Below are positions 581 through 12,129 of a stretch of 13,309 bases of DNA, piece after piece. Under the pieces are notes generated by a model. The model saw only the letters and a list, made by a program, of their open reading frames with translations, had not been told where the DNA came from and searched no databases. Origin of the DNA: a virus. Position 1 is the first letter of the stretch; every line of letters starts with the position of its first letter. The position numbers and the translations under genes are program-made. Where the stretch lies: UHGV virus genome UHGV-0315017. One strand, given 5' to 3'.

Positions 581-603
581 TTTATAAGCTATCAGCCGGA
601 TTT

Positions 604-660
604 TTTAGTTATACGTTTAGTTATACGGGCTGGCGTATAACTAAAGCCGTATAACTAAAA
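604..660. repeat. Arm-type repeat cluster: two direct copies of TTAGTTATACG followed by two inverted copies CGTATAACTAA (candidate integrase arm sites)
   Basis: TTAGTTATACGTTTAGTTATACGG gctgg CGTATAACTAAAGCCGTATAACTAA read directly; the direct-copy half recurs at 11928-11952. Confidence 0.55.
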
Positions 661-3363: not shown

Positions 3364-3561
3364 ATGGTTGCTGTAAATCATATACCACACCTTGTACACA
3401 CACAAACGGCCTTTGTGTGGCGTTTTCTGGCACTGAGTGCCGGAGAATCTCAAATCATCCACGTAACCGCCTGGACGGAACGCGAAGCGCGTGGCCGTTG
3501 CCCGTCCGGTTGTGTTGCAGTATTCGCCGCCCGTATTCGTCAGGGGTCACATCATGCGTAA
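3364..3561 (+). CDS. Hypothetical small protein, paralog A (65 aa)
   Basis: AGGAG SD 7 nt upstream; shares FVWRF...TEREAR...ARIRQG motifs with the product of 3848-4015. Confidence 0.5.
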   Translation: MVAVNHIPHLVHTQTAFVWRFLALSAGESQIIHVTAWTEREARGRCPSGCVAVFAARIRQGSHHA

Positions 3562-3683: not shown

Positions 3684-3847
3684 GTGTCCGTAAGCCTACC
3701 CATACCCGCATTATGGCGGGGCGTAACGGGGGAGCCTTTGCGCTCGCTGGTTCCTACAGTGCCAGTCTGCTAACCCTGTTACGTCTCGCCACCCCGTTTA
3801 GCAGCGTAGTAGCGAGACTCCTTAAAATTACTGTAGGAGCCTTTCAC

Positions 3848-4687: not shown

Positions 4688-4987
4688 ATGAAACTTAAAT
4701 ATTCTGGCTTAACTGCCAGTGGCAAAACTCGCACTAAATTCATGCGCGGTGATATTTACCGCGACCAGTACGGCGGCACGGTAATGATTAAGGGCGTGGA
4801 GGAACGGCGCATCACCTACCGTCGTGAAGGCTACGAATATGATTGCGTGATGCCTGTTTATCAGTTTCGGCGTGATTTTTCTCTGGTACAGGCAGCGCCC
4901 CGCAGTAAACCAACCAGCAGGGAGAAAGCACGCGCCAATATTCAGGAAATAAAAAAGATGCTTAACGTATTCAGGGGTAAAAAATGA
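4688..4987 (+). CDS. Hypothetical protein (99 aa) immediately upstream of and coupled to the primase gene
   Basis: GGAGAA SD; stop overlaps the primase start (ATGA at 4984-4987). Confidence 0.55.
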   Translation: MKLKYSGLTASGKTRTKFMRGDIYRDQYGGTVMIKGVEERRITYRREGYEYDCVMPVYQFRRDFSLVQAAPRSKPTSREKARANIQEIKKMLNVFRGKK

Positions 4988-6732
4988 AACTGGCACCGAA
5001 CGTAAAAAAACAACCACGCGGAATAAAACACAAAGACACAGAGGTAATTATTTTCGCGGGTAGTGATGCGTGGGCACATGCAAAACAGTGGCAGGAGCAG
5101 GACGGCCCCGCATCCGGCGATAATGTGCCGCCTGTGTGGCTTGGGCCAAATCAGCTTGCCGAACTTGATGCACTGAAAATTGTTCCGGATGGAAAAAAAC
5201 GCGTAAGGCTGTACCAGGCCGGAGAACTGGATTTGGTGGAGACCAAAAAGATTGGTCAGAAGCTGGCGGCGGCAGATATTCAGGACGCAAATTTTTACCA
5301 CGAAGGAATGCACGTCCAGAAGTGTGAAAACTGGCGGCGCTATCTGAATGCTGAGCGTGAAAATATTGCCGCAGGGCTTACCATGCCGGAGCAGAAAAAT
5401 ACGCAACTGGCACAAATGGCAGACAGTGAGCGCGCGCAGCTGCTTGCCGAGCGCTTTGATGGCGTTTGTGTGCATCAGGAAAGTGAAATCGTTCACGTAT
5501 GGCGCGGCGGGGTATGGTGTCCGGTCAGCACAATGGAACTTAGCCGCGAAATGGTGGCGATCTATTCAGAGCACAGGGCCACTTTCAGCAAGCGCGTAAT
5601 CAATAACGCCGTGGAAGCGTTAAAAGTTATTGCCGAACCAATGGGCGAGCCGTCCGGCGATTTGCTGCCGTTCGCCAATGGTGCGCTTGACCTGAAAACG
5701 GGGGAATTTTCCCCGCACACGCCGGAGAACTGGATCACCACGCACAACGGCATTGAGTACACGCCACCAGCACCTGGGGAGAACATCCGCGATAACGCGC
5801 CAAACTTTCATAAATGGCTTAAGCACGCAGCCGGAAAAGACCCGCGCAAGATGATGCGTATATGTGCCGCGCTGTACATGATTATGGCGAACCGGTACGA
5901 CTGGCAGATGTTTATTGAGGCCACCGGAGACGGCGGGAGCGGTAAAAGTACATTCACGCACATAGCCAGCCTTCTGGCAGGGAAACAGAACACGGTAAGC
6001 GCTGAAATGACATCGCTTGATGATGCTGGTGGACGTGCGCAGGTTGTCGGGAGTCGTCTTATCGTCCTGGCTGACCAGCCGAAATATACAGGCGAAGGAA
6101 CGGGCATCAAGAAAATCACGGGCGGTGACCCCGTGGAAATTAACCCGAAATACGAAAAGCGTTTCACGGCTGTAATCAGGGCGGTGGTGCTGGCGACCAA
6201 CAATAACCCGATGATATTCACCGAACGGGCCGGAGGTGTGGCACGTCGTCGCGTGATTTTCCGTTTCGACAATATCGTCAGTGAGGCCGAAAAAGACAGG
6301 GAGCTACCGGAAAAGATCGCGGCTGAAATCCCTGTCATTATCCGCCGATTGCTGGCGAACTTTACCGACCCTGAGAAGGCACGGGCTTTACTACTGGAAC
6401 AGCGTGACGGTGATGAAGCTCTGGCAATAAAGCAACAGACGGATCCGGTTATTGAGTTTTGCCAGTTCCTGAATTTTCTGGAGGAAGCACGCGGCCTGAT
6501 GATGGGCGGCGGTGGCGATTCAGTGAAGTACACGACCAGGAACAGCCTTTACCGCGTCTATCTGGCGTTTATGGCATACGCAGGCAGGAGCAAACCGCTA
6601 AACGTAAATGACTTTGGCAAGGCTATGAAGCCTGCCGCAAAAGTTTACGGACATGAATATATTACGCGGAAAGTTAAGGGGGTAACGCAGACTAACGCAA
6701 TAACAACAGACGAGTGCGACGCGTTTTTATAA
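4984..6732 (+). CDS. Replication initiator: primase / SF3 (D5-like) helicase, P4 alpha-like C-terminal region
   Basis: 582 aa with Walker A GDGGSGKST and downstream helicase-like motifs; size and position match the pri-rep genes of P4-like and PICI elements. Confidence 0.85.
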   Translation: MKLAPNVKKQPRGIKHKDTEVIIFAGSDAWAHAKQWQEQDGPASGDNVPPVWLGPNQLAELDALKIVPDGKKRVRLYQAGELDLVETKKIGQKLAAADIQDANFYHEGMHVQKCENWRRYLNAERENIAAGLTMPEQKNTQLAQMADSERAQLLAERFDGVCVHQESEIVHVWRGGVWCPVSTMELSREMVAIYSEHRATFSKRVINNAVEALKVIAEPMGEPSGDLLPFANGALDLKTGEFSPHTPENWITTHNGIEYTPPAPGENIRDNAPNFHKWLKHAAGKDPRKMMRICAALYMIMANRYDWQMFIEATGDGGSGKSTFTHIASLLAGKQNTVSAEMTSLDDAGGRAQVVGSRLIVLADQPKYTGEGTGIKKITGGDPVEINPKYEKRFTAVIRAVVLATNNNPMIFTERAGGVARRRVIFRFDNIVSEAEKDRELPEKIAAEIPVIIRRLLANFTDPEKARALLLEQRDGDEALAIKQQTDPVIEFCQFLNFLEEARGLMMGGGGDSVKYTTRNSLYRVYLAFMAYAGRSKPLNVNDFGKAMKPAAKVYGHEYITRKVKGVTQTNAITTDECDAFL

Positions 6733-6744
6733 TTTTTTGTAATT

Positions 6745-6972
6745 GCTGTCTACCCTGTCTACCCGAGTAAAGAAAAATACATTTAATTCAGTGCATTAAG
6801 TTAGGTAGATGGCCTTTTTTTACTGTCTACCCACTATCTACCCTCTCTACCTGATTTTACCTGAATCAGACAGGGAGGTAGACACGGGGTAGATACTGGA
6901 TAAAAGCACTCTACCCCGCTGAAAGCCGCGCCATTACTGGTATGAGGGCCACTAAGGTAGATAAGGTAGACA
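6745..6972. repeat. Iteron array (candidate replication origin): about 12 copies of TCTACC(C) / GGTAGA(C/T) in both orientations
   Basis: CTGTCTACCCTGTCTACCC, GGTAGATGG, CTGTCTACCCACTATCTACCCTCTCTACC, GAGGTAGACACGGGGTAGAT, CTCTACCCC, AAGGTAGATAAGGTAGAC; non-coding and immediately downstream of the primase-helicase gene. Confidence 0.65.
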
Positions 6973-7020
6973 AGGGGAGGCACAACTCAAAACTTTTTAA
7001 ACGAGGGGGTAAAAATAAAT

Positions 7021-7943: not shown

Positions 7944-9206
7944 ATGGCTGAAGAGAAAAAAGGCGGTGTTTCGGTGTACATAAGCCCCGACATCGTGAAG
8001 GCGCTCAAGGAACGCCACCAGCAGAACGTAAAAGCAGGCATTGCGGCAGGACTTGACCCGCTGGCGATGGTTGAGCCGTCAACAGGCTGGCAGGTACGCG
8101 CCTATTTACGCGCGGCGCTGGGTATGAATCAGGTTCACGGGGGGGGAATAATGACAGTAAAAGCAATGGCACTTAACACTAACCAGCTTTTTGCGTACCT
8201 GAATCGCGAGGATATTGCGGAATTTAAATTCAGTCCGCTGTTTACCACGCTGTTTTTCCCGAACGTGGCGACATTCAGCACGCAAAACATCATGCTGGAT
8301 ACCCTGGACATTGAAGAAGTCACCATGTCGGCGTTTTGTTCGCCTATGGTGGGTAGCCAGGTTCAGCGCGATAAAGGGTACGAAACCAGCACAATCAAAC
8401 CTGGCTACATGAAGCCAAAGCACGAAATCGATCCAACGAAAACCATCATGCGCATGGCTGGAGAAGATCCGGCACAGCTTAACGACCCTACCTATCGCCG
8501 TATGCGCCTGATTACTGGCAATATGCGCCGCCAGATAAACGCCATAAAAGCGCGCGTGGAATGGCTGGCGGTAAATGCGGTAACGACCGGAAAAAACATC
8601 ATTGAGGGCGAAGGCATAGAGCGCTATGAAATCGACTGGAAGATACCGGAAAAAAACATCATAGAGCAGGCCGACGGTAAAAAATGGTCAGAGCAGGACA
8701 AAGAAATCCACGATCCAATCTATGATATCGAACTATACGCCGATCAGGCAGGTTGCCCCGCCAACGTCATGATTATGGGCGCTGAGGTATGGCGAACGTT
8801 ACGCAGCTTTAAAAAATTCCGTGAGCTGTACGATCTTTCCCGTGGTTCAGAGTCCGCCGCAGAGCTGGCATGTAAAAACCTGGGCGAAGTGGTGAGCTTT
8901 AAAGGCTATCTGGGCGATATTGCCCTTATCGTCTATTCCGGCAAATACGCCGACAGTGACGGCAGAGAAAAATATTTCCTTGAGCCTGATTTGCTTGTCC
9001 TGGGCAACACCAACAATAAAGGGCTGGTGGCCTATGGTGCGATTATGGATCAGGACGCAGTAAGAACGGGGGCAACGCAAAACATGTACTACCCGAAAAA
9101 CTGGATTGAGGACGGAGATCCGGCGATTGAGTACGTGCAGACACACAGTGCACCGCAGCCGGTACCGGCAGTTATTCGCAAATTTGTTACCGTCAAAATT
9201 GGTTAA
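7944..9206 (+). CDS. Major capsid protein, lambda gpE-like, with about 70-aa N-terminal extension
   Basis: Long blocks shared with lambda gpE as recalled: KFSPLF..LFF, PGYMKPKHE, EDPAQLNDPTYRRMR, SFKGYLGDIALIVYSGKY, LVLGNT, YPKNW..GDPA. AGAGGA SD before ATG 7944. Confidence 0.88.
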   Translation: MAEEKKGGVSVYISPDIVKALKERHQQNVKAGIAAGLDPLAMVEPSTGWQVRAYLRAALGMNQVHGGGIMTVKAMALNTNQLFAYLNREDIAEFKFSPLFTTLFFPNVATFSTQNIMLDTLDIEEVTMSAFCSPMVGSQVQRDKGYETSTIKPGYMKPKHEIDPTKTIMRMAGEDPAQLNDPTYRRMRLITGNMRRQINAIKARVEWLAVNAVTTGKNIIEGEGIERYEIDWKIPEKNIIEQADGKKWSEQDKEIHDPIYDIELYADQAGCPANVMIMGAEVWRTLRSFKKFRELYDLSRGSESAAELACKNLGEVVSFKGYLGDIALIVYSGKYADSDGREKYFLEPDLLVLGNTNNKGLVAYGAIMDQDAVRTGATQNMYYPKNWIEDGDPAIEYVQTHSAPQPVPAVIRKFVTVKIG

Positions 9207-10010: not shown

Positions 10011-10086
10011 CGGGTCCTTTCCGGCATATGGACCCGTTACGGGGCGGCGACCTCGCGGTTTTTCGCTATTTATGAGCTTTTTCAGG
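10011..10086 (+). other. Lambda-type cos site X (cosQ-like, cosN, I2-like); cohesive-end 12-mer at 10042-10053
   Basis: ACGGGTCCTTTCCGG...CCGTTACG|GGGCGGCGACCT|CGCGGTTTTTCGCTATTTATGA closely matches the lambda right-end/left-end junction as recalled (…CGGGTCCTTTCCGGTGATCCGACAGGTTACG | GGGCGGCGACCTCGCGGGTTTTCGCTATTTATGAAA). Confidence 0.8.
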
Positions 10087-10186: not shown

Positions 10187-10729
10187 ATGAAATCGCACCT
10201 GATGAACAAAAAAAACATGGCGAAAAGCTGCCGTGTAAGTGCGACAGCGTTCGACAAGTGGGGAGTGACTCCCGTTGAACGTAAAGGCCGTGAGGCGTTT
10301 TACGATGTTGCCAGCGTGATAGACAATAGGGTTAACAATGCAATTAGCCAGCTTACAAACGACAAAGGCGATATTGATGATGATGAACTCTTACGAGTCA
10401 GGATCAGATTACTGACAGCACAGGCGGAGGCGCAGGAACTTAAAAACGAGCGCGATCGCGGTGACGTGATTGATACTGAGTTTTGCCTGTACGCGCTTTC
10501 AAAGCTGGCGAGTCAGATTTCATCAATCATGGACAGCCTCCCGCTTACTATGCAAAGGAGCTTCCCACAGATTACCCCCGCCATGCTGGATAGGCTTAAA
10601 AGGGAAGTGGTTAAAGCCTGTAATGCCAGTGCCAGAGTTGCCGACAACCTCCCACAGATACTGGCTGATTACTTGAAAGAAACAACCGGAAACGTACCGG
10701 AAAAGTTGCTACAGAAGAAAGGCGAGTAA
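10187..10729 (+). CDS. Terminase small subunit, lambda Nu1-like
   Basis: 180 aa (Nu1 is 181); N-terminal HTH region and central block LTAQAEAQELKNERDRGDVIDTEFCLYALSKLASQISSIMDSLPLTMQRSFP align with lambda Nu1 (LTRAQADAQELKNARDSAEVVETAFCTFVLSRIAGEIASILDGLPLSVQRRFP) as recalled. Confidence 0.85.
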   Translation: MKSHLMNKKNMAKSCRVSATAFDKWGVTPVERKGREAFYDVASVIDNRVNNAISQLTNDKGDIDDDELLRVRIRLLTAQAEAQELKNERDRGDVIDTEFCLYALSKLASQISSIMDSLPLTMQRSFPQITPAMLDRLKREVVKACNASARVADNLPQILADYLKETTGNVPEKLLQKKGE

Positions 10730-10874: not shown

Positions 10875-10952
10875 CCAGAAAAATTTTCATAAACAGATAA
10901 AAACCGCGAGGTCGCCGCCCCGTAACGGGCCATAATTCCAGGAAGGACCCGA
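10875..10952 (-). other. Lambda-type cos site Y in inverted orientation; cohesive-end 12-mer at 10909-10920 (minus strand)
   Basis: Reverse complement reads CGGGTCCTTCCTGGAATTATGGCCCGTTACGGGGCGGCGACCTCGCGGTTTTTATCTGTTTATGAAAATTTTTCTGG, about 75 bp near-identical to site X and forming an inverted repeat with it. Confidence 0.8.
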
Positions 10953-10984
10953 CGACACCAGACTATCAGAGCGATGGGGGCACA

Positions 10985-11167
10985 ATGACAGAAGCCGAAA
11001 TACTGGGATTAATCCGCCGTGATGGTATCCAGCTTAATGGCGTGGATATGCGCAACATACGAACCAGAGTTCTTGAGTTGCTGGCCTACCGTCGCCGCGT
11101 TGAGATGTATCGGGAGAAGGAAAAAATTACGTACCACTGGAAGAAGCCGGAGCGGTTGCGGCGGTAA
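10985..11167 (+). CDS. Hypothetical small basic protein (60 aa)
   Basis: GGGGG SD 5 nt before the ATG; Arg-rich; no family recognised. Confidence 0.4.
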   Translation: MTEAEILGLIRRDGIQLNGVDMRNIRTRVLELLAYRRRVEMYREKEKITYHWKKPERLRR

Positions 11168-11231
11168 CTGGTTGATATTTTCGGAAACCTCAATTTGAGG
11201 AGGCCGGAAGCGTCACCCTTTAGATTCTGAA

Positions 11232-11246
11232 TGGTGATAATCACCA
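11232..11246. repeat. 15-bp palindrome TGGTGATAATCACCA (copy 1 of 3)
   Basis: Perfect palindrome; flanked CTGAA...CGCC. Confidence 0.6.
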
Positions 11247-11255
11247 CGCCCAATC

Positions 11256-11290
11256 GTGACGGAGAGTGACAGCCAGTGACACGCCGTGAC
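11256..11290 (+). repeat. Four direct GTGAC repeats at exact 10-bp spacing
   Basis: GTGACggaga GTGACagcca GTGACacgcc GTGAC; one helical turn per repeat. Confidence 0.5.
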
Positions 11291-11399
11291 AAAAGACGGT
11301 TTAACCGTTAATTAAAAATCGACGGGATTTTGTGTTTTCCGGACGACGTGGCCAACGTCATTTTTTAGCGAAAAATTCTGATTAAGGTCATTGTCTGAA

Positions 11400-11414
11400 T
11401 GGTCATAATGACCA
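11400..11414. repeat. 15-bp palindrome TGGTCATAATGACCA (copy 2 of 3)
   Basis: Perfect palindrome, preceded by CTGAA like copy 1. Confidence 0.6.
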
Positions 11415-11494
11415 CGCAGACCATCAAGGCAACCATAACGATTTTCGTTACGGTTGATGTGTGCCTTCGTCCGGCATTCGGACGATATAAGGGA

Positions 11495-11509
11495 TGGTCA
11501 TAATGACCA
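11495..11509. repeat. 15-bp palindrome TGGTCATAATGACCA (copy 3 of 3)
   Basis: Identical to copy 2. Confidence 0.6.
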
Positions 11510-11657
11510 CTCCTACAGAACAGGTAAAACCCACCAGCCTGATTAACAGTTAACCGGAAAAAAATCCGGCATGGGGGGGGAGTGGTTAGCCACGAACAAC
11601 GAATAAGCTGGACACCGCGCCCCCTCTCACGCAGAGAAAAAATTACCGTTTCGTAGT

Positions 11658-11790
11658 AGTTAACATGTTAACTGCCTGATGAAGCGTTGTTGTTGATTTT
11701 GTCTTTATGATTCATCTGGTTGCGAGCAAAAAATGTTAACTACCTTTTTGGTAAAAATGTTAACAGGGCAGAGGTTAACATTAACCTGGC
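11658..11790. repeat. Cluster of GTTAAC-containing motifs including the 16-bp palindrome AGTTAACATGTTAACT
   Basis: AGTTAACATGTTAACT, AATGTTAACTACC, AATGTTAACAGGG, GGTTAACATTAACC read directly in non-coding DNA. Confidence 0.4.
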
Positions 11791-11796
11791 GTAAAT

Positions 11797-11822
11797 CCCG
11801 ATATGGTGATCACCATATCGGG
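11797..11822. repeat. 26-bp perfect palindrome CCCGATATGGTGATCACCATATCGGG
   Basis: Read directly; equals its own reverse complement. Confidence 0.6.
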
Positions 11823-11927
11823 GAACATCCACCAGCTTAAAAACGAATGAGCGAAAAAAAATCCAGGTAGAATCATGGAAGTCGCTAGGGCAATCGCCGT
11901 TTAAATTGTGCATTTTTTCAGCAAATT

Positions 11928-11952
11928 ATTTTAGTTATACGTTTGGTTATAC
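11928..11952 (+). repeat. Arm-type direct repeat TTTTAGTTATACGTTTGGTTATACGG, partner of 604-628
   Basis: 24 of 25 positions identical to the left-end copy. Confidence 0.55.
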
Positions 11953-12003
11953 GGTTTAAAAGTTGAATCAATAATATTTATTAAAATCATGCGGTTACAC
12001 GCT

Positions 12004-12035
12004 AAATTAAACTACTCTCGTGGACCAAAAATCCC
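12004..12035 (+). other. Putative attR core: degenerate copy of the tRNA-Pro 3' end
   Basis: TAAATTAAACTACTCTCGTGGACCAAAAATCCC versus tRNA TTCAAATCCTCTCGTGCCGACCAAATCGCCC. Confidence 0.5.
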
Positions 12036-12068
12036 AAGAAAAAACCAACCTTCACGGTTGGTTTTTTT
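12036..12068. terminator. Bidirectional rho-independent terminator between the island end and the convergent autotransporter-like gene
   Basis: A-run, CCAACC ttcac GGTTGG hairpin, T-run (GTTTTTTT). Confidence 0.75.
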
Positions 12069-12129
12069 ATATCTGCATTTAATTCGATAAACAGACAGCG
12101 ACACATCACGGCCTGTTTATTTTCTGTTA

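What the first reader, a model, noticed from the sequence alone, without database searches (positions are those of the whole stretch)
11232..11509. Three copies of a 15-bp palindrome TGGT(G/C)ATAAT(C/G)ACCA plus four helically phased GTGAC repeats in the non-coding right arm
Perfect palindromes at 11232-11246, 11400-11414 and 11495-11509, two of them preceded by CTGAA, lie in an ~750-bp stretch with no plausible ORF. Four GTGAC repeats at exact 10-bp spacing (11256-11290) place the sites on one face of the helix, as in protein-binding arrays. The region is just outside cos site Y and the 60-aa ORF, so it could be a terminase or packaging-accessory binding array, a repressor operator set, or a partition-like site.
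Basis: seen in the sequence. Interest (0 to 1): 0.6.

Follow-up and report, generated by a model that had tools for sequence, protein, structure and literature searches.

The report
Helper-phage origin repeats in a satellite
The non-coding right end of this E. coli phage satellite is built from swappable cassettes joined by a small hairpin-forming palindrome, and one cassette is a bare copy of the repeats that form the replication origin of a common prophage family, so the satellite may bind that phage's replication starter protein.

Summary
Three 15-bp palindromes lie at 11232, 11400 and 11495, and four GTGAC repeats at exact 10-bp spacing lie at 11256-11290. Neither is expected by chance. 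They are two separate things.

The window is an EcCICFT073-type phage-inducible chromosomal island at tRNA-Pro. Its own origin (TCTACC iterons, 6740-6980) and both lambda-type cos sites lie elsewhere.

The GTGAC array matches the phased GTCAC iterons found inside the replication-initiator gene of HK97-like lambdoid prophages. One such prophage, at ompW, shares an exact 17-mer with the array. Its cos region is also copied 320 bp further along the same arm. Across islands the pentamers never vary, while the spacers do. My best reading is a stand-alone binding array for a helper phage's initiator, acting as a decoy or an auxiliary origin. Binding is inferred, not shown.

The palindromes are specific to these islands and have several alleles that keep the dyad through compensatory changes. 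They sit exactly at the joints between shuffled cassettes. Most islands have one copy, so three copies reflect cassette stacking, not an operator set. Their molecular reader is unresolved.

The terminase, repressor and partition readings are not supported.

The parts
11168..11205 (+). Cassette B: one copy of a roughly 45-55-bp unit (TGATATTTTCGGAAA plus mini-hairpin CCTCA-ATT-TGAGG) directly after the stop codon of the last island gene
   Evidence: related arms carry 0-7 such units, with different stem sequences (CCTCA/TGAGG, GCGCAA/TTGCGC, TTCGCC/GGCGAA and others).
11223..11255 (.). Palindrome 1, extended dyad (core TGGTGATAATCACCA at 11232-11246); joint between cassettes B and C
   Evidence: (I12).
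11256..11290 (+). Four GTGAC(A) repeats at 10-bp spacing, read here as an iteron array of helper-phage initiator type
   Evidence: phasing not expected by chance; 0 of 20 pentamer positions vary against 9 of 15 spacer positions; the same arrays lie inside phage initiator genes; the exact 17-mer at 11275-11291 is shared with the ompW prophage initiator gene.
11291..11344 (.). A+T-rich spacer of cassette C, with a short hairpin ACGGTTTAACCGT (11296-11308) that is terminator-like on the minus strand
11345..11366 (+). Terminator-like hairpin GACGTGGCCAACGTC followed by T6. It lies within 11325-11384, which is about 82% identical to the region just downstream of the lysozyme gene R of Stx and other lambdoid phages
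11390..11424 (.). Palindrome 2, extended dyad (core TGGTCATAATGACCA at 11400-11414; lower stem GTCTG/CAGAC); joint between cassettes C and D
   Evidence: I6; fold -16.1 to -16.6 kcal/mol, z about -3.1 to -3.4.
11431..11484 (.). Cassette D: hairpins CAACCATAACGA-TTT-TCGTTACGGTTG (11431-11457) and CGTCCGGCATTCGGACG (11468-11484)
11490..11514 (.). Palindrome 3, extended dyad (core 11495-11509); joint between cassettes D and E. Other islands hold TTACGATAATCATAA at the same position
   Evidence: (I20).
11515..11569 (.). Cassette E: a conserved block holding a Chi site on the minus strand (11531-11538) and the hairpin CCGGA-A5-TCCGG
   Evidence: present in 33 of 38 unique arms.
11609..11782 (+). 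Cassette F: a copy (79% over 174 nt) of the HNH-terS intergenic region, the cos region, of an HK97-like prophage, with ATGTTAAC repeats
   Evidence: (H7).

Best explanation
The 278-bp finding holds two unrelated cis elements. Both lie in the cassette-built, non-coding 3' arm of an EcCICFT073-type phage-inducible chromosomal island.

(1) The four GTGAC repeats are a stand-alone iteron array of the kind that forms the replication origin inside the initiator gene of HK97-like lambdoid prophages of E. coli. These initiators are O-like, annotated 'replication initiation protein' or replisome organiser, with a DnaT domain. I infer that the array binds the initiator of such a helper phage once the phage is induced or infects. 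On a satellite that amplifies from its own origin, many copies would most likely titrate that initiator and so interfere with the helper. Less likely, the array recruits the helper's replication machinery as an auxiliary origin. The same arm carries a copy of that phage family's cos region, so the arm collects cis sites of a helper type.

(2) The 15-bp palindromes are the tips of 25-35-bp hairpin-forming dyads that are specific to these islands. Their sequence can change as long as the dyad, the A/T centre and an A...C flank are kept. I infer that they act as single-strand stem-loops, most simply in the rightward transcript of the island's operon, as 3' stabilisers or insulators. Because they are short blocks of identity, they have become the crossover points where cassettes are gained, lost and stacked. 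Three copies here mean three joints (B|C|D|E), not a cooperative binding array.

Shown: sequence identity of the array type, selective conservation, cassette architecture, and compensatory changes. Inferred: who binds, on which strand, and the effect on the helper.
For: Context:
- The island runs from tRNA-Pro (406-482) to attR at about 12016.
- It has an integrase, a P4-type primase-helicase, SSB, lambda E-like and D-like capsid genes and a Nu1-like gene between two inverted lambda cosN sites. This matches published EcCICFT073 (PMC6092414, PMC6739421).
- Its own origin is the TCTACC iteron set directly after the primase gene.

Array:
- The phasing is non-random.
- In 8 distinct island variants all 20 pentamer positions are invariant, while 9 of 15 spacer positions vary.
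- Of 77 new viral contigs with 4x GTGAC-N5, 35 hold the array inside an ORF with the conserved initiator N-terminus, always with GTCAC on the sense strand.
- Phage Evi and the ompW prophage of strain 09-02E each have two such arrays (4+5 and 6+5 copies at 10-11 bp) in the initiator gene. The second array is followed by an A+T-rich stretch. The proteins match PHROG 'replication initiation protein' families (DnaT domain).
- The ompW prophage shares the exact 17-mer AGTGACACGCCGTGACA with 11275-11291, and its cos region is 79% identical to 11609-11782.
- This initiator module is in 2216 of 5426 complete E. coli genomes.
- There is no flank or protein-level homology, so the array is not a gene remnant.
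- Precedent for iteron-dependent interference: plasmids carrying ori-lambda iterons ITN3-4 (with the oop RNA, also required) block rep-lambda phages (PMC3349717).

Palindromes:
- 113 dyads of the form N5-ATWAT-N5 occur in 83.6 kb of arms, against 4.3 in shuffles, in at least five alleles, all flanked A...C.
- 5 of 10 pairs show changes on both sides, with a covariation score of 0.369 against 0.159 in shuffles (0 of 500 shuffles reach it). This includes lower-stem pairs in unrelated flanks.
- The flanks on either side switch between alternative cassettes exactly at the palindrome. For example, L005 lacks cassette D precisely between two copies.
Against: - No binding was tested.
- The island array has its A+T-rich stretch on the opposite side, relative to repeat polarity, from the phage's second array. 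It is also only about 62% A+T (my count from the sequence). This argues against a working origin and leaves the decoy reading untested.
- Apart from the 17-mer, the match to phage arrays is only at the level of a 5-bp repeat. The pattern search selected for it, and 42 of 77 hits were not in a recognisable initiator ORF.
- Only 15 of 38 unbiased arms carry the array, and 3 of 38 carry the cos copy, so both are optional.
- I could not test co-occurrence of array-bearing islands with GTCAC-type prophages in the same genomes.
- For the palindromes, within close relatives they do not vary, so the covariation rests on paralogous alleles. Part of that set was selected for having at least 3 of 5 outer pairs.
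- Template-switch repair of quasi-palindromes can produce symmetric changes without selection.
- Strand evidence is mixed: 130 of 169 cells pair on the minus strand against 121 on the plus strand.
- None of the three copies is followed by a T-run.
- Perfect 15-bp identity over 58 copies also fits a sequence-specific protein.
Confidence: 0.42

Rival explanations
1. The GTGAC array together with its A+T-rich neighbour is a working second origin. The helper's initiator fires it, so the island is co-replicated by helper machinery in addition to its own replicon.
For: Repeats followed by an A+T-rich stretch (TTAATTAAAAAT) are the usual origin layout. The array type is that of phage origins inside initiator genes.
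Against: The island already has a complete replicon with its own iterons. EcCICFT073 replicates without a helper when AlpA is expressed (PMC6092414). The A+T-rich side is inverted relative to repeat polarity compared with the phage. There are four repeats, against 5-6 plus a second array in phages. The array is optional (15 of 38 arms).
Confidence: 0.13
2. The palindromes are operators for a dimeric DNA-binding protein of the island, the helper or the host, and the three copies allow cooperative repression.
For: Perfect 7-1-7 palindromes are typical targets of helix-turn-helix dimers. The cores contain -10-like hexamers (CATAAT, GATAAT). The exact 15-mer is kept in 58 copies in different contexts.
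Against: There is no consensus promoter at any copy and no gene downstream. One copy is the rule and spacing is not conserved. Different alleles (TAATCATTATGATTA, TTACGATAATCATAA) sit at the same positions or in the same arm. No island protein family co-occurs. No such site occurs elsewhere in the island, in GenBank phages, or in more than one copy in non-island viral contigs. The operator regions of GCAC-type prophages I inspected do not resemble it.
Confidence: 0.15
3. The palindromes and cassette joints are selectively neutral scars. These are quasi-palindromes kept perfect by template-switch repair and spread by unequal recombination between islands. The arm is stuffer DNA that tunes genome length for packaging.
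For: Copy number and cassette content vary widely. Deletions and duplications end exactly at the repeats. [quoted passage not shown]
Against: Dyads occur 26-fold more often than in shuffles. The A...C flank is invariant across alleles. Lower-stem complementarity is kept in unrelated flanks. The GTGAC pentamers show clear purifying selection.
Confidence: 0.15
4. The region is a packaging accessory site bound by terminase small subunit, the Rpp-like protein or the 60-aa protein.
For: It lies within 320-600 bp of a cosN site and next to the 60-aa gene. The arm also holds a third, HK97-type cos-like block.
Against: It lies on the cosQ side of the inverted cos. The cosB sides face the Nu1-like gene and have no similar motif. 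The palindrome occurs without the 93-aa gene in cis (L002, L016). The AlphaFold model of the 93-aa protein is a low-confidence three-helix rod with no recognisable DNA-binding fold (pLDDT 66).
Confidence: 0.05

Closest known systems
Origin iterons inside phage initiator genes (ori-lambda in gene O; the origin within gene 38 of SPP1), and specifically the GTCAC arrays in the initiator genes of E. coli phage Evi and the ompW-type prophages
   Same: The same 5-bp repeat with one-helical-turn spacing and four or more copies. An exact 17-mer is shared with one prophage.
   Different: The array stands alone in non-coding DNA of a satellite that encodes a different replicase and has a different origin. 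It is a single array and the A+T-rich flank is inverted. Binding of GTCAC arrays by these initiators is itself an inference by analogy with lambda O; I found no paper on it in the held library.
Inhibition phenotype of plasmids carrying ori-lambda iterons (Hayes et al. 2012, PMC3349717)
   Same: Extra copies of a phage's origin iterons in trans block replication of phages with that replication type.
   Different: That system also needs the oop RNA and was built in the laboratory. Here the array is natural, on a satellite, and its effect is untested.
Satellites that carry helper cis sites: cos1 and cos2 of EcCICFT073, and the cos site of SaPIbov5 (PMC6092414, PMC6739421)
   Same: A satellite copies a helper's DNA recognition site to exploit helper proteins. 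This island has both published lambda-type cos sites plus an HK97-type cos-like block.
   Different: The site copied here is a replication site, not a packaging site. I found no report of this for these islands.
REP/BIME-type extragenic palindromes at operon 3' ends
   Same: Short hairpin-forming repeats in variable numbers downstream of the last gene. They tolerate sequence change if the stem is kept and act as recombination points.
   Different: There is no sequence similarity and they are restricted to these islands. The RNA-level role is not shown here, and no dedicated transposase is present.
matS, the MatP site GTGACRNYGTCAC (from my own knowledge)
   Same: It shares the GTGAC half-site.
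   Different: matS is a 13-bp inverted repeat. Here there are four direct repeats 10 bp apart, so the defining dyad is absent.

Membership tests
Helper-phage initiator iteron array (GTCAC type) | Repeat GTCAC/GTGAC in at least 4 copies at 10-11-bp spacing | tested here: met
   Four copies at exactly 10 bp. Phages have 4-6 copies at 10-11 bp.
Helper-phage initiator iteron array (GTCAC type) | Repeats conserved while spacers are free to vary | tested here: met
   0 of 20 pentamer positions vary against 9 of 15 spacer positions in 8 island variants.
Helper-phage initiator iteron array (GTCAC type) | Located inside the initiator gene, followed by an A+T-rich unwinding stretch | tested here: not met
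   The array is non-coding and stand-alone, with no flank or protein homology. The A+T-rich side is inverted relative to the phage. It therefore works like, or mimics, an origin array but is not a phage origin in situ.
Helper-phage initiator iteron array (GTCAC type) | Bound by the initiator's N-terminal domain | not testable with these tools
   This needs EMSA, footprinting or ChIP.
The island's own replication origin | Directly 3' of the replicase gene, with two iteron sets flanking an A+T-rich region (PMC6092414) | tested here: not met
   That layout is at 6740-6980 with TCTACC repeats. The GTGAC array occurs with different replicases, D5-type here and RepA-type in L006-L008, and with no replicase allele in particular.
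lambda-type cosB / terminase small-subunit sites | Lies between cosN and the small-terminase gene, and holds R-type repeats shared with the helper | tested here: not met
   Both cosB sides face 10187-10729 and lack these motifs. The finding is on the cosQ side. The palindrome is absent from GenBank phages.
Repressor operator set | Palindromes overlap a promoter of a regulated gene, with conserved number and spacing and a cognate repressor linked to them | tested here: not met
Partition (centromere-like) site | Repeat array linked to parA/parB-type genes on an element with a plasmid state | tested here: not met
   No such genes are present. These islands have no plasmid state (PMC6092414).
Intrinsic terminator | G+C-rich hairpin followed directly by a T-run | tested here: not met
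   None of the three palindromes qualifies. A separate hairpin at 11345-11366 does.
Core site of the island's tyrosine integrase | Resembles the att core or the arm-type sites of the resident integrase | tested here: not met
   The core is CTCTCGTG... at about 12018, and the arm sites are (A/G)GTTATACG at 603-660 and 11929-11955. The palindrome is shared by islands with other integrases and att sites. A 7-7-7 reading (GAATGGT CATAATG ACCACGC) remains formally possible for some other recombinase.
Structured single-strand hairpin element | Pairs kept through compensatory changes | tested here: inconclusive
   5 of 10 pairs have changes on both sides, and 0 of 500 shuffles reach the observed score. 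However, this rests on paralogous alleles that were partly selected for pairing, there is no variation among orthologues, and the strand is unresolved.

The most novel reading that the evidence does not exclude
A phage satellite carries a decoy of its helper's replication origin. When a GTCAC-type lambdoid prophage is induced, the amplifying island presents hundreds of four-repeat arrays that soak up the phage initiator. This slows helper replication while the island replicates from its own origin and is packaged through its copied cos sites. This would be a replication-level interference mechanism not yet described for Gram-negative chromosomal islands. The hairpin joints would be the device that lets islands swap such helper-specific cassettes.
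Probability: 0.25. Interest if true: 0.78.

Novelty: new variant of a known kind. Interest (0 to 1): 0.6.

Why it matters
These islands are known to hijack helper packaging through copied cos sites and the Rpp protein. If they also carry the helper's origin repeats, interference or piggy-backing extends to DNA replication. The array type would then predict which prophages (a module present in about 41% of complete E. coli genomes) an island is matched to. The cassette arm, with palindromic joints, a third cos copy, Chi sites and an iteron array, would be a compact and readable record of helper specificity. It could also be a useful handle for engineered islands used as delivery vehicles. All of this can be tested directly with a four-pentamer mutation and one purified protein domain.

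Tried and rejected
- Own origin: rejected. The real one is at 6740-6980.
- Terminase or cosB site: rejected on geometry and motif content.
- Known RNA families: none in 10900-12120, even at E up to 5.
- Target of the island's C4/CI-like antisense RNA: its loop complements lie at 3427 and 3830, not in the arm.
- Sigma-70 promoters in the palindromes: the -10-like hexamers lack usable -35 boxes (and by eye).
- Phage operators: the palindrome is not in GenBank phages and appears only as single, chance-level hits outside islands in IMG/VR. It is absent from phage Evi and from the prophage stretches of strain 09-02E that I fetched (L004), and the local blastn of the arm against L004 and L240 found no match to it.
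- Remnant of an initiator gene: blastn and blastx find nothing beyond the repeats.
- Co-occurrence with island proteins: 66 families against 7 features gave a best p of about 2e-4, with no clean partner.
- 93-aa neighbour protein: hypothetical wherever a source names it, no Pfam domain, no match in GenBank phages, and a low-confidence helical model. A fold search was not run for that reason.
- Literature search for the 15-mer: nothing relevant.
- Host-factor motifs compared from memory only (Fur, CRP, LexA, DnaA, IHF, Fis, FadR/HutC-type GntR, XerCD dif, matS): none fits in spacing. These are leads, not tests.

Full report
**What the window is**

A tRNA-Pro gene lies at 406-482. It is followed by a tyrosine integrase (673-1932), a C4/CI-type antisense RNA (3709-3796) and a P4-family primase-helicase (4984-6732).

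Next come an SSB gene, a lambda E-like capsid gene, a lambda D-like decoration gene and a Nu1-like gene at 10187-10729. That last gene sits between two exact lambda cosN sequences in inverted orientation: 10042-10053 on the + strand and 10909-10920 on the - strand.

In E. coli genomes the same element sits between yejM/tRNA-Pro and yejO. Sequence from about 12015 onward matches genomes that lack the island, which places attR there. The gene set and the two cos sites are those published for EcCICFT073 (PMC6092414, PMC6739421).

The island's origin has the published layout, iterons flanking an A+T-rich stretch directly after the replicase gene. It is at 6740-6980 with TCTACC repeats.

The finding lies in the roughly 850-bp non-coding arm between the last gene and attR. 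That last gene is the 60-aa ORF at 10985-11167, an in-frame deletion of a 93-aa island-specific protein.

**Check of the observation**

All coordinates are right. Matches to the palindrome consensus are expected 0.07 times in shuffles, and there is no other match in the window. The phased GTGAC pattern never arose in 200 shuffles. The dyads extend beyond the 15-bp cores to 25-35 bp.

**The arm is built from cassettes**

I compared the arm with 9 E. coli loci and more than 100 IMG/VR contigs. Some of these were found by the palindrome and some only by the neighbouring 93-aa gene.

The arm resolves into blocks: B (hairpin unit), C (GTGAC array, A+T-rich stretch, terminator-like hairpin), D (two hairpins), E (Chi-bearing block), F (cos-like block), G (26-bp palindrome), then the att-specific end.

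Islands with different integrases, insertion sites and replicases share these blocks in different combinations. In a sample of 38 unique arms that is unbiased with respect to the palindrome:

- 18 hold TGGTSATAATSACCA (16 once, one twice, one three times).
- 30 hold some allele of the dyad.
- 15 hold the GTGAC array.
- 33 hold block E.
- 3 hold block F.

Sequence on either side of the palindrome switches between alternatives exactly at its edges. For example, L005 goes from palindrome 2 straight into E and so lacks D. L012 has the gene, then C, the palindrome and E. L003 has units, then the palindrome, D and E, without C. The three copies in this window are therefore the three joints B|C, C|D and D|E.

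**The GTGAC array**

In eight distinct island variants no pentamer position varies, while 9 of 15 spacer positions do. Copy number is 3-5. This is purifying selection on the repeats and their phase.

A scan of viral contigs for four GTGAC at 10-bp spacing gave more than 120 loci. Of the 77 new ones, 35 hold the array inside an ORF. In every case GTCAC is on the sense strand, and the N-terminus carries a conserved W(L/F)R(L/W)(W/H)H...DPK(W/F) motif. In the neighbourhoods I inspected, these ORFs lie in lambdoid immunity and replication regions or next to a DnaB-like helicase gene.

The E. coli representatives match PHROG 'replication initiation protein' families and carry a DnaT domain. Phage Evi has two arrays in this gene, of four and five GTCAC at 10-11 bp, and the second is followed by an A+T-rich GATAAAGATACA stretch. 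A 10-bp repeat falls in all three reading frames, so it is a DNA-level signal. By analogy with ori-lambda inside gene O, it is the origin.

The prophage at ompW in strain 09-02E has arrays of six and five copies. It shares the exact 17-mer AGTGACACGCCGTGACA with window 11275-11291. The same prophage's HNH-terS intergenic region is 79% identical over 174 nt to window 11609-11782. From established knowledge of HK97-type phages, that region is where their cos site lies.

The arm therefore carries two cis sites of one prophage type. This initiator module is in 2216 of 5426 complete E. coli genomes. There is no similarity beyond the repeats at DNA or protein level, so the island array is a bare cassette and not a decayed gene. 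No island protein family tracks with it.

**How the array most likely works**

This step is inferred. The array binds the initiator of a GTCAC-type helper. A functional origin is less likely, for three reasons:

- The island has its own replicon.
- EcCICFT073 replicates without a helper (PMC6092414).
- The A+T-rich flank is on the opposite side, relative to repeat polarity, from the phage's.

Titration of the initiator by an amplifying satellite has a laboratory precedent. Plasmids carrying ori-lambda iterons ITN3-4, together with the oop RNA, block rep-lambda phages (PMC3349717). I found no report of helper-type iterons in these islands in the held library.

**The palindromes**

They are specific to these islands. 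They are absent from GenBank phages and appear only as single, chance-level hits in other viral contigs. They are also absent from the prophages examined.

Dyads of the form N5-ATWAT-N5 occur 113 times in 83.6 kb of arms, against 4.3 in shuffles. The alleles include TGGTCATAATGACCA, TGGTGATAATCACCA, TAATCATTATGATTA, TTACGATAATCATAA and TGATCATTATGATTA. All are flanked by A on the left and C on the right. Different alleles occupy the same position in different islands or coexist in one arm.

On an alignment of 13 distinct contexts:

- 5 of 10 pairs show changes on both sides.
- The covariation score is 0.369 against 0.159 in shuffles, and 0 of 500 shuffles reach it.
- Slid controls give 0.113 or less.
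- The lower-stem pairs, which lie in unrelated flanks and were not used for selection, are also kept.

The invariant A...C would be a G.U pair on the minus strand, which pairs slightly better overall, 130 against 121 of 169 cells. The folds are moderately stable, -12 to -17 kcal/mol.

These features argue for a structure-forming element rather than one sequence-specific operator. There are caveats. Orthologues do not vary. The alleles are paralogous and were partly selected for pairing. Template-switch repair can also keep quasi-palindromes symmetric.

No copy has a consensus promoter, a T-run or a downstream gene. The island integrase's core and arm sites are different sequences. I therefore commit only weakly to a role as a stem-loop in the rightward operon transcript, as a 3' stabiliser or insulator. 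I commit more firmly to their being the crossover points of cassette exchange.

**What is not supported**

- A terminase or Rpp site: the cosB sides are elsewhere and lack these motifs.
- An operator set.
- A partition site.
- The island's own origin.

The 93-aa protein gave no functional clue.

**Verdict**

The GTGAC half of the finding has a concrete, testable and apparently unreported reading: helper origin repeats on a satellite. The palindrome half is a defined, island-specific dyad element that marks cassette joints, and its reader is unknown.

Noticed in passing
window 11609-11782: A third cos-like block. It is 79% identical over 174 nt to the HNH-terS intergenic region of an HK97-like prophage (L004 12001-12173), with five ATGTTAAC/GTTAACAT repeats, in addition to the two lambda-type cosN sites at 10042 and 10909. 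It is present in only 3 of 38 related arms.
   Followed up: partly
window, whole (1853, 2767, 6025, 9023 on +; 5764, 7659, 8015, 11531, 11829 on -): Nine Chi sites (GCTGGTGG) against 0.36 expected from shuffles. The two in the arm lie in conserved blocks and are oriented to be read by RecBCD entering from the cos side. The + strand site at 9023 faces the other end of a cos1-cut monomer. This may protect a satellite that has no Gam.
   Followed up: partly
window 3709-3796, with 3427-3435 and 3830-3838: A C4/P4-CI-type antisense RNA (Rfam RF01695, 71.5 bits) lies upstream of an Icd-like ORF. Its loop (CUACAGUGCCAG) has 9-nt complements on both sides of the gene, as in P4 immunity (seqA/seqC).
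   Followed up: partly
window 603-660 and 11929-11955; core about 12016-12035: Probable integrase arm-type sites (A/G)GTTATACG. Four copies (two direct, two inverted) lie just upstream of int and two direct copies lie about 70 bp from attR. The att core is CTCTCGTG... at the 3' end of tRNA-Pro.
   Followed up: partly
window 11797-11822: A perfect 26-bp palindrome, CCCGATATGGTGATCACCATATCGGG. Related islands have ATATGGGGATCCCCATAT at the same place, another symmetric change. The half-site ATGGTGA resembles that of palindrome 1 but with different spacing.
   Followed up: no
window 11168-11205; L006, L007, L075, L107 arms: The arms hold 0-7 tandem units of about 45-55 bp. Each starts after a TAAC that mimics the stop-codon region of the last gene (..GCGGTAAC), then has TGAT(A/T)TT.., then a mini-hairpin whose stem differs from unit to unit (CCTCA, GCGCAA, TTCGCC, CAGCC, CCCCC and others). 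Their origin and role are unknown.
   Followed up: partly
window 11325-11384 (minus strand corresponds to the phage sense strand): A 60-nt block about 82% identical to the sequence just downstream of lysozyme gene R in Stx-converting and other lambdoid phages (Ss-VASD, SPN3UB). It contains a hairpin plus T6 that would terminate transcription running against the phage late operon. As part of the island's rightward transcript it would be antisense to helper late mRNA.
   Followed up: partly
window 10985-11167: The 60-aa ORF is an exact in-frame deletion (residues 11-43) of a 93-aa protein (PHROG 1561). That protein is the last gene of many E. coli and Shigella islands, including capsid-forming types. 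It is absent from GenBank phages, and AlphaFold gives a low-confidence three-helix model.
   Followed up: yes
window 6740-6980: The island's own origin: about six direct (C)TGTCTACC(C) repeats and five inverted GGTAGA(C/T)A repeats flank an A+T-rich stretch directly after the primase-helicase gene.
   Followed up: yes
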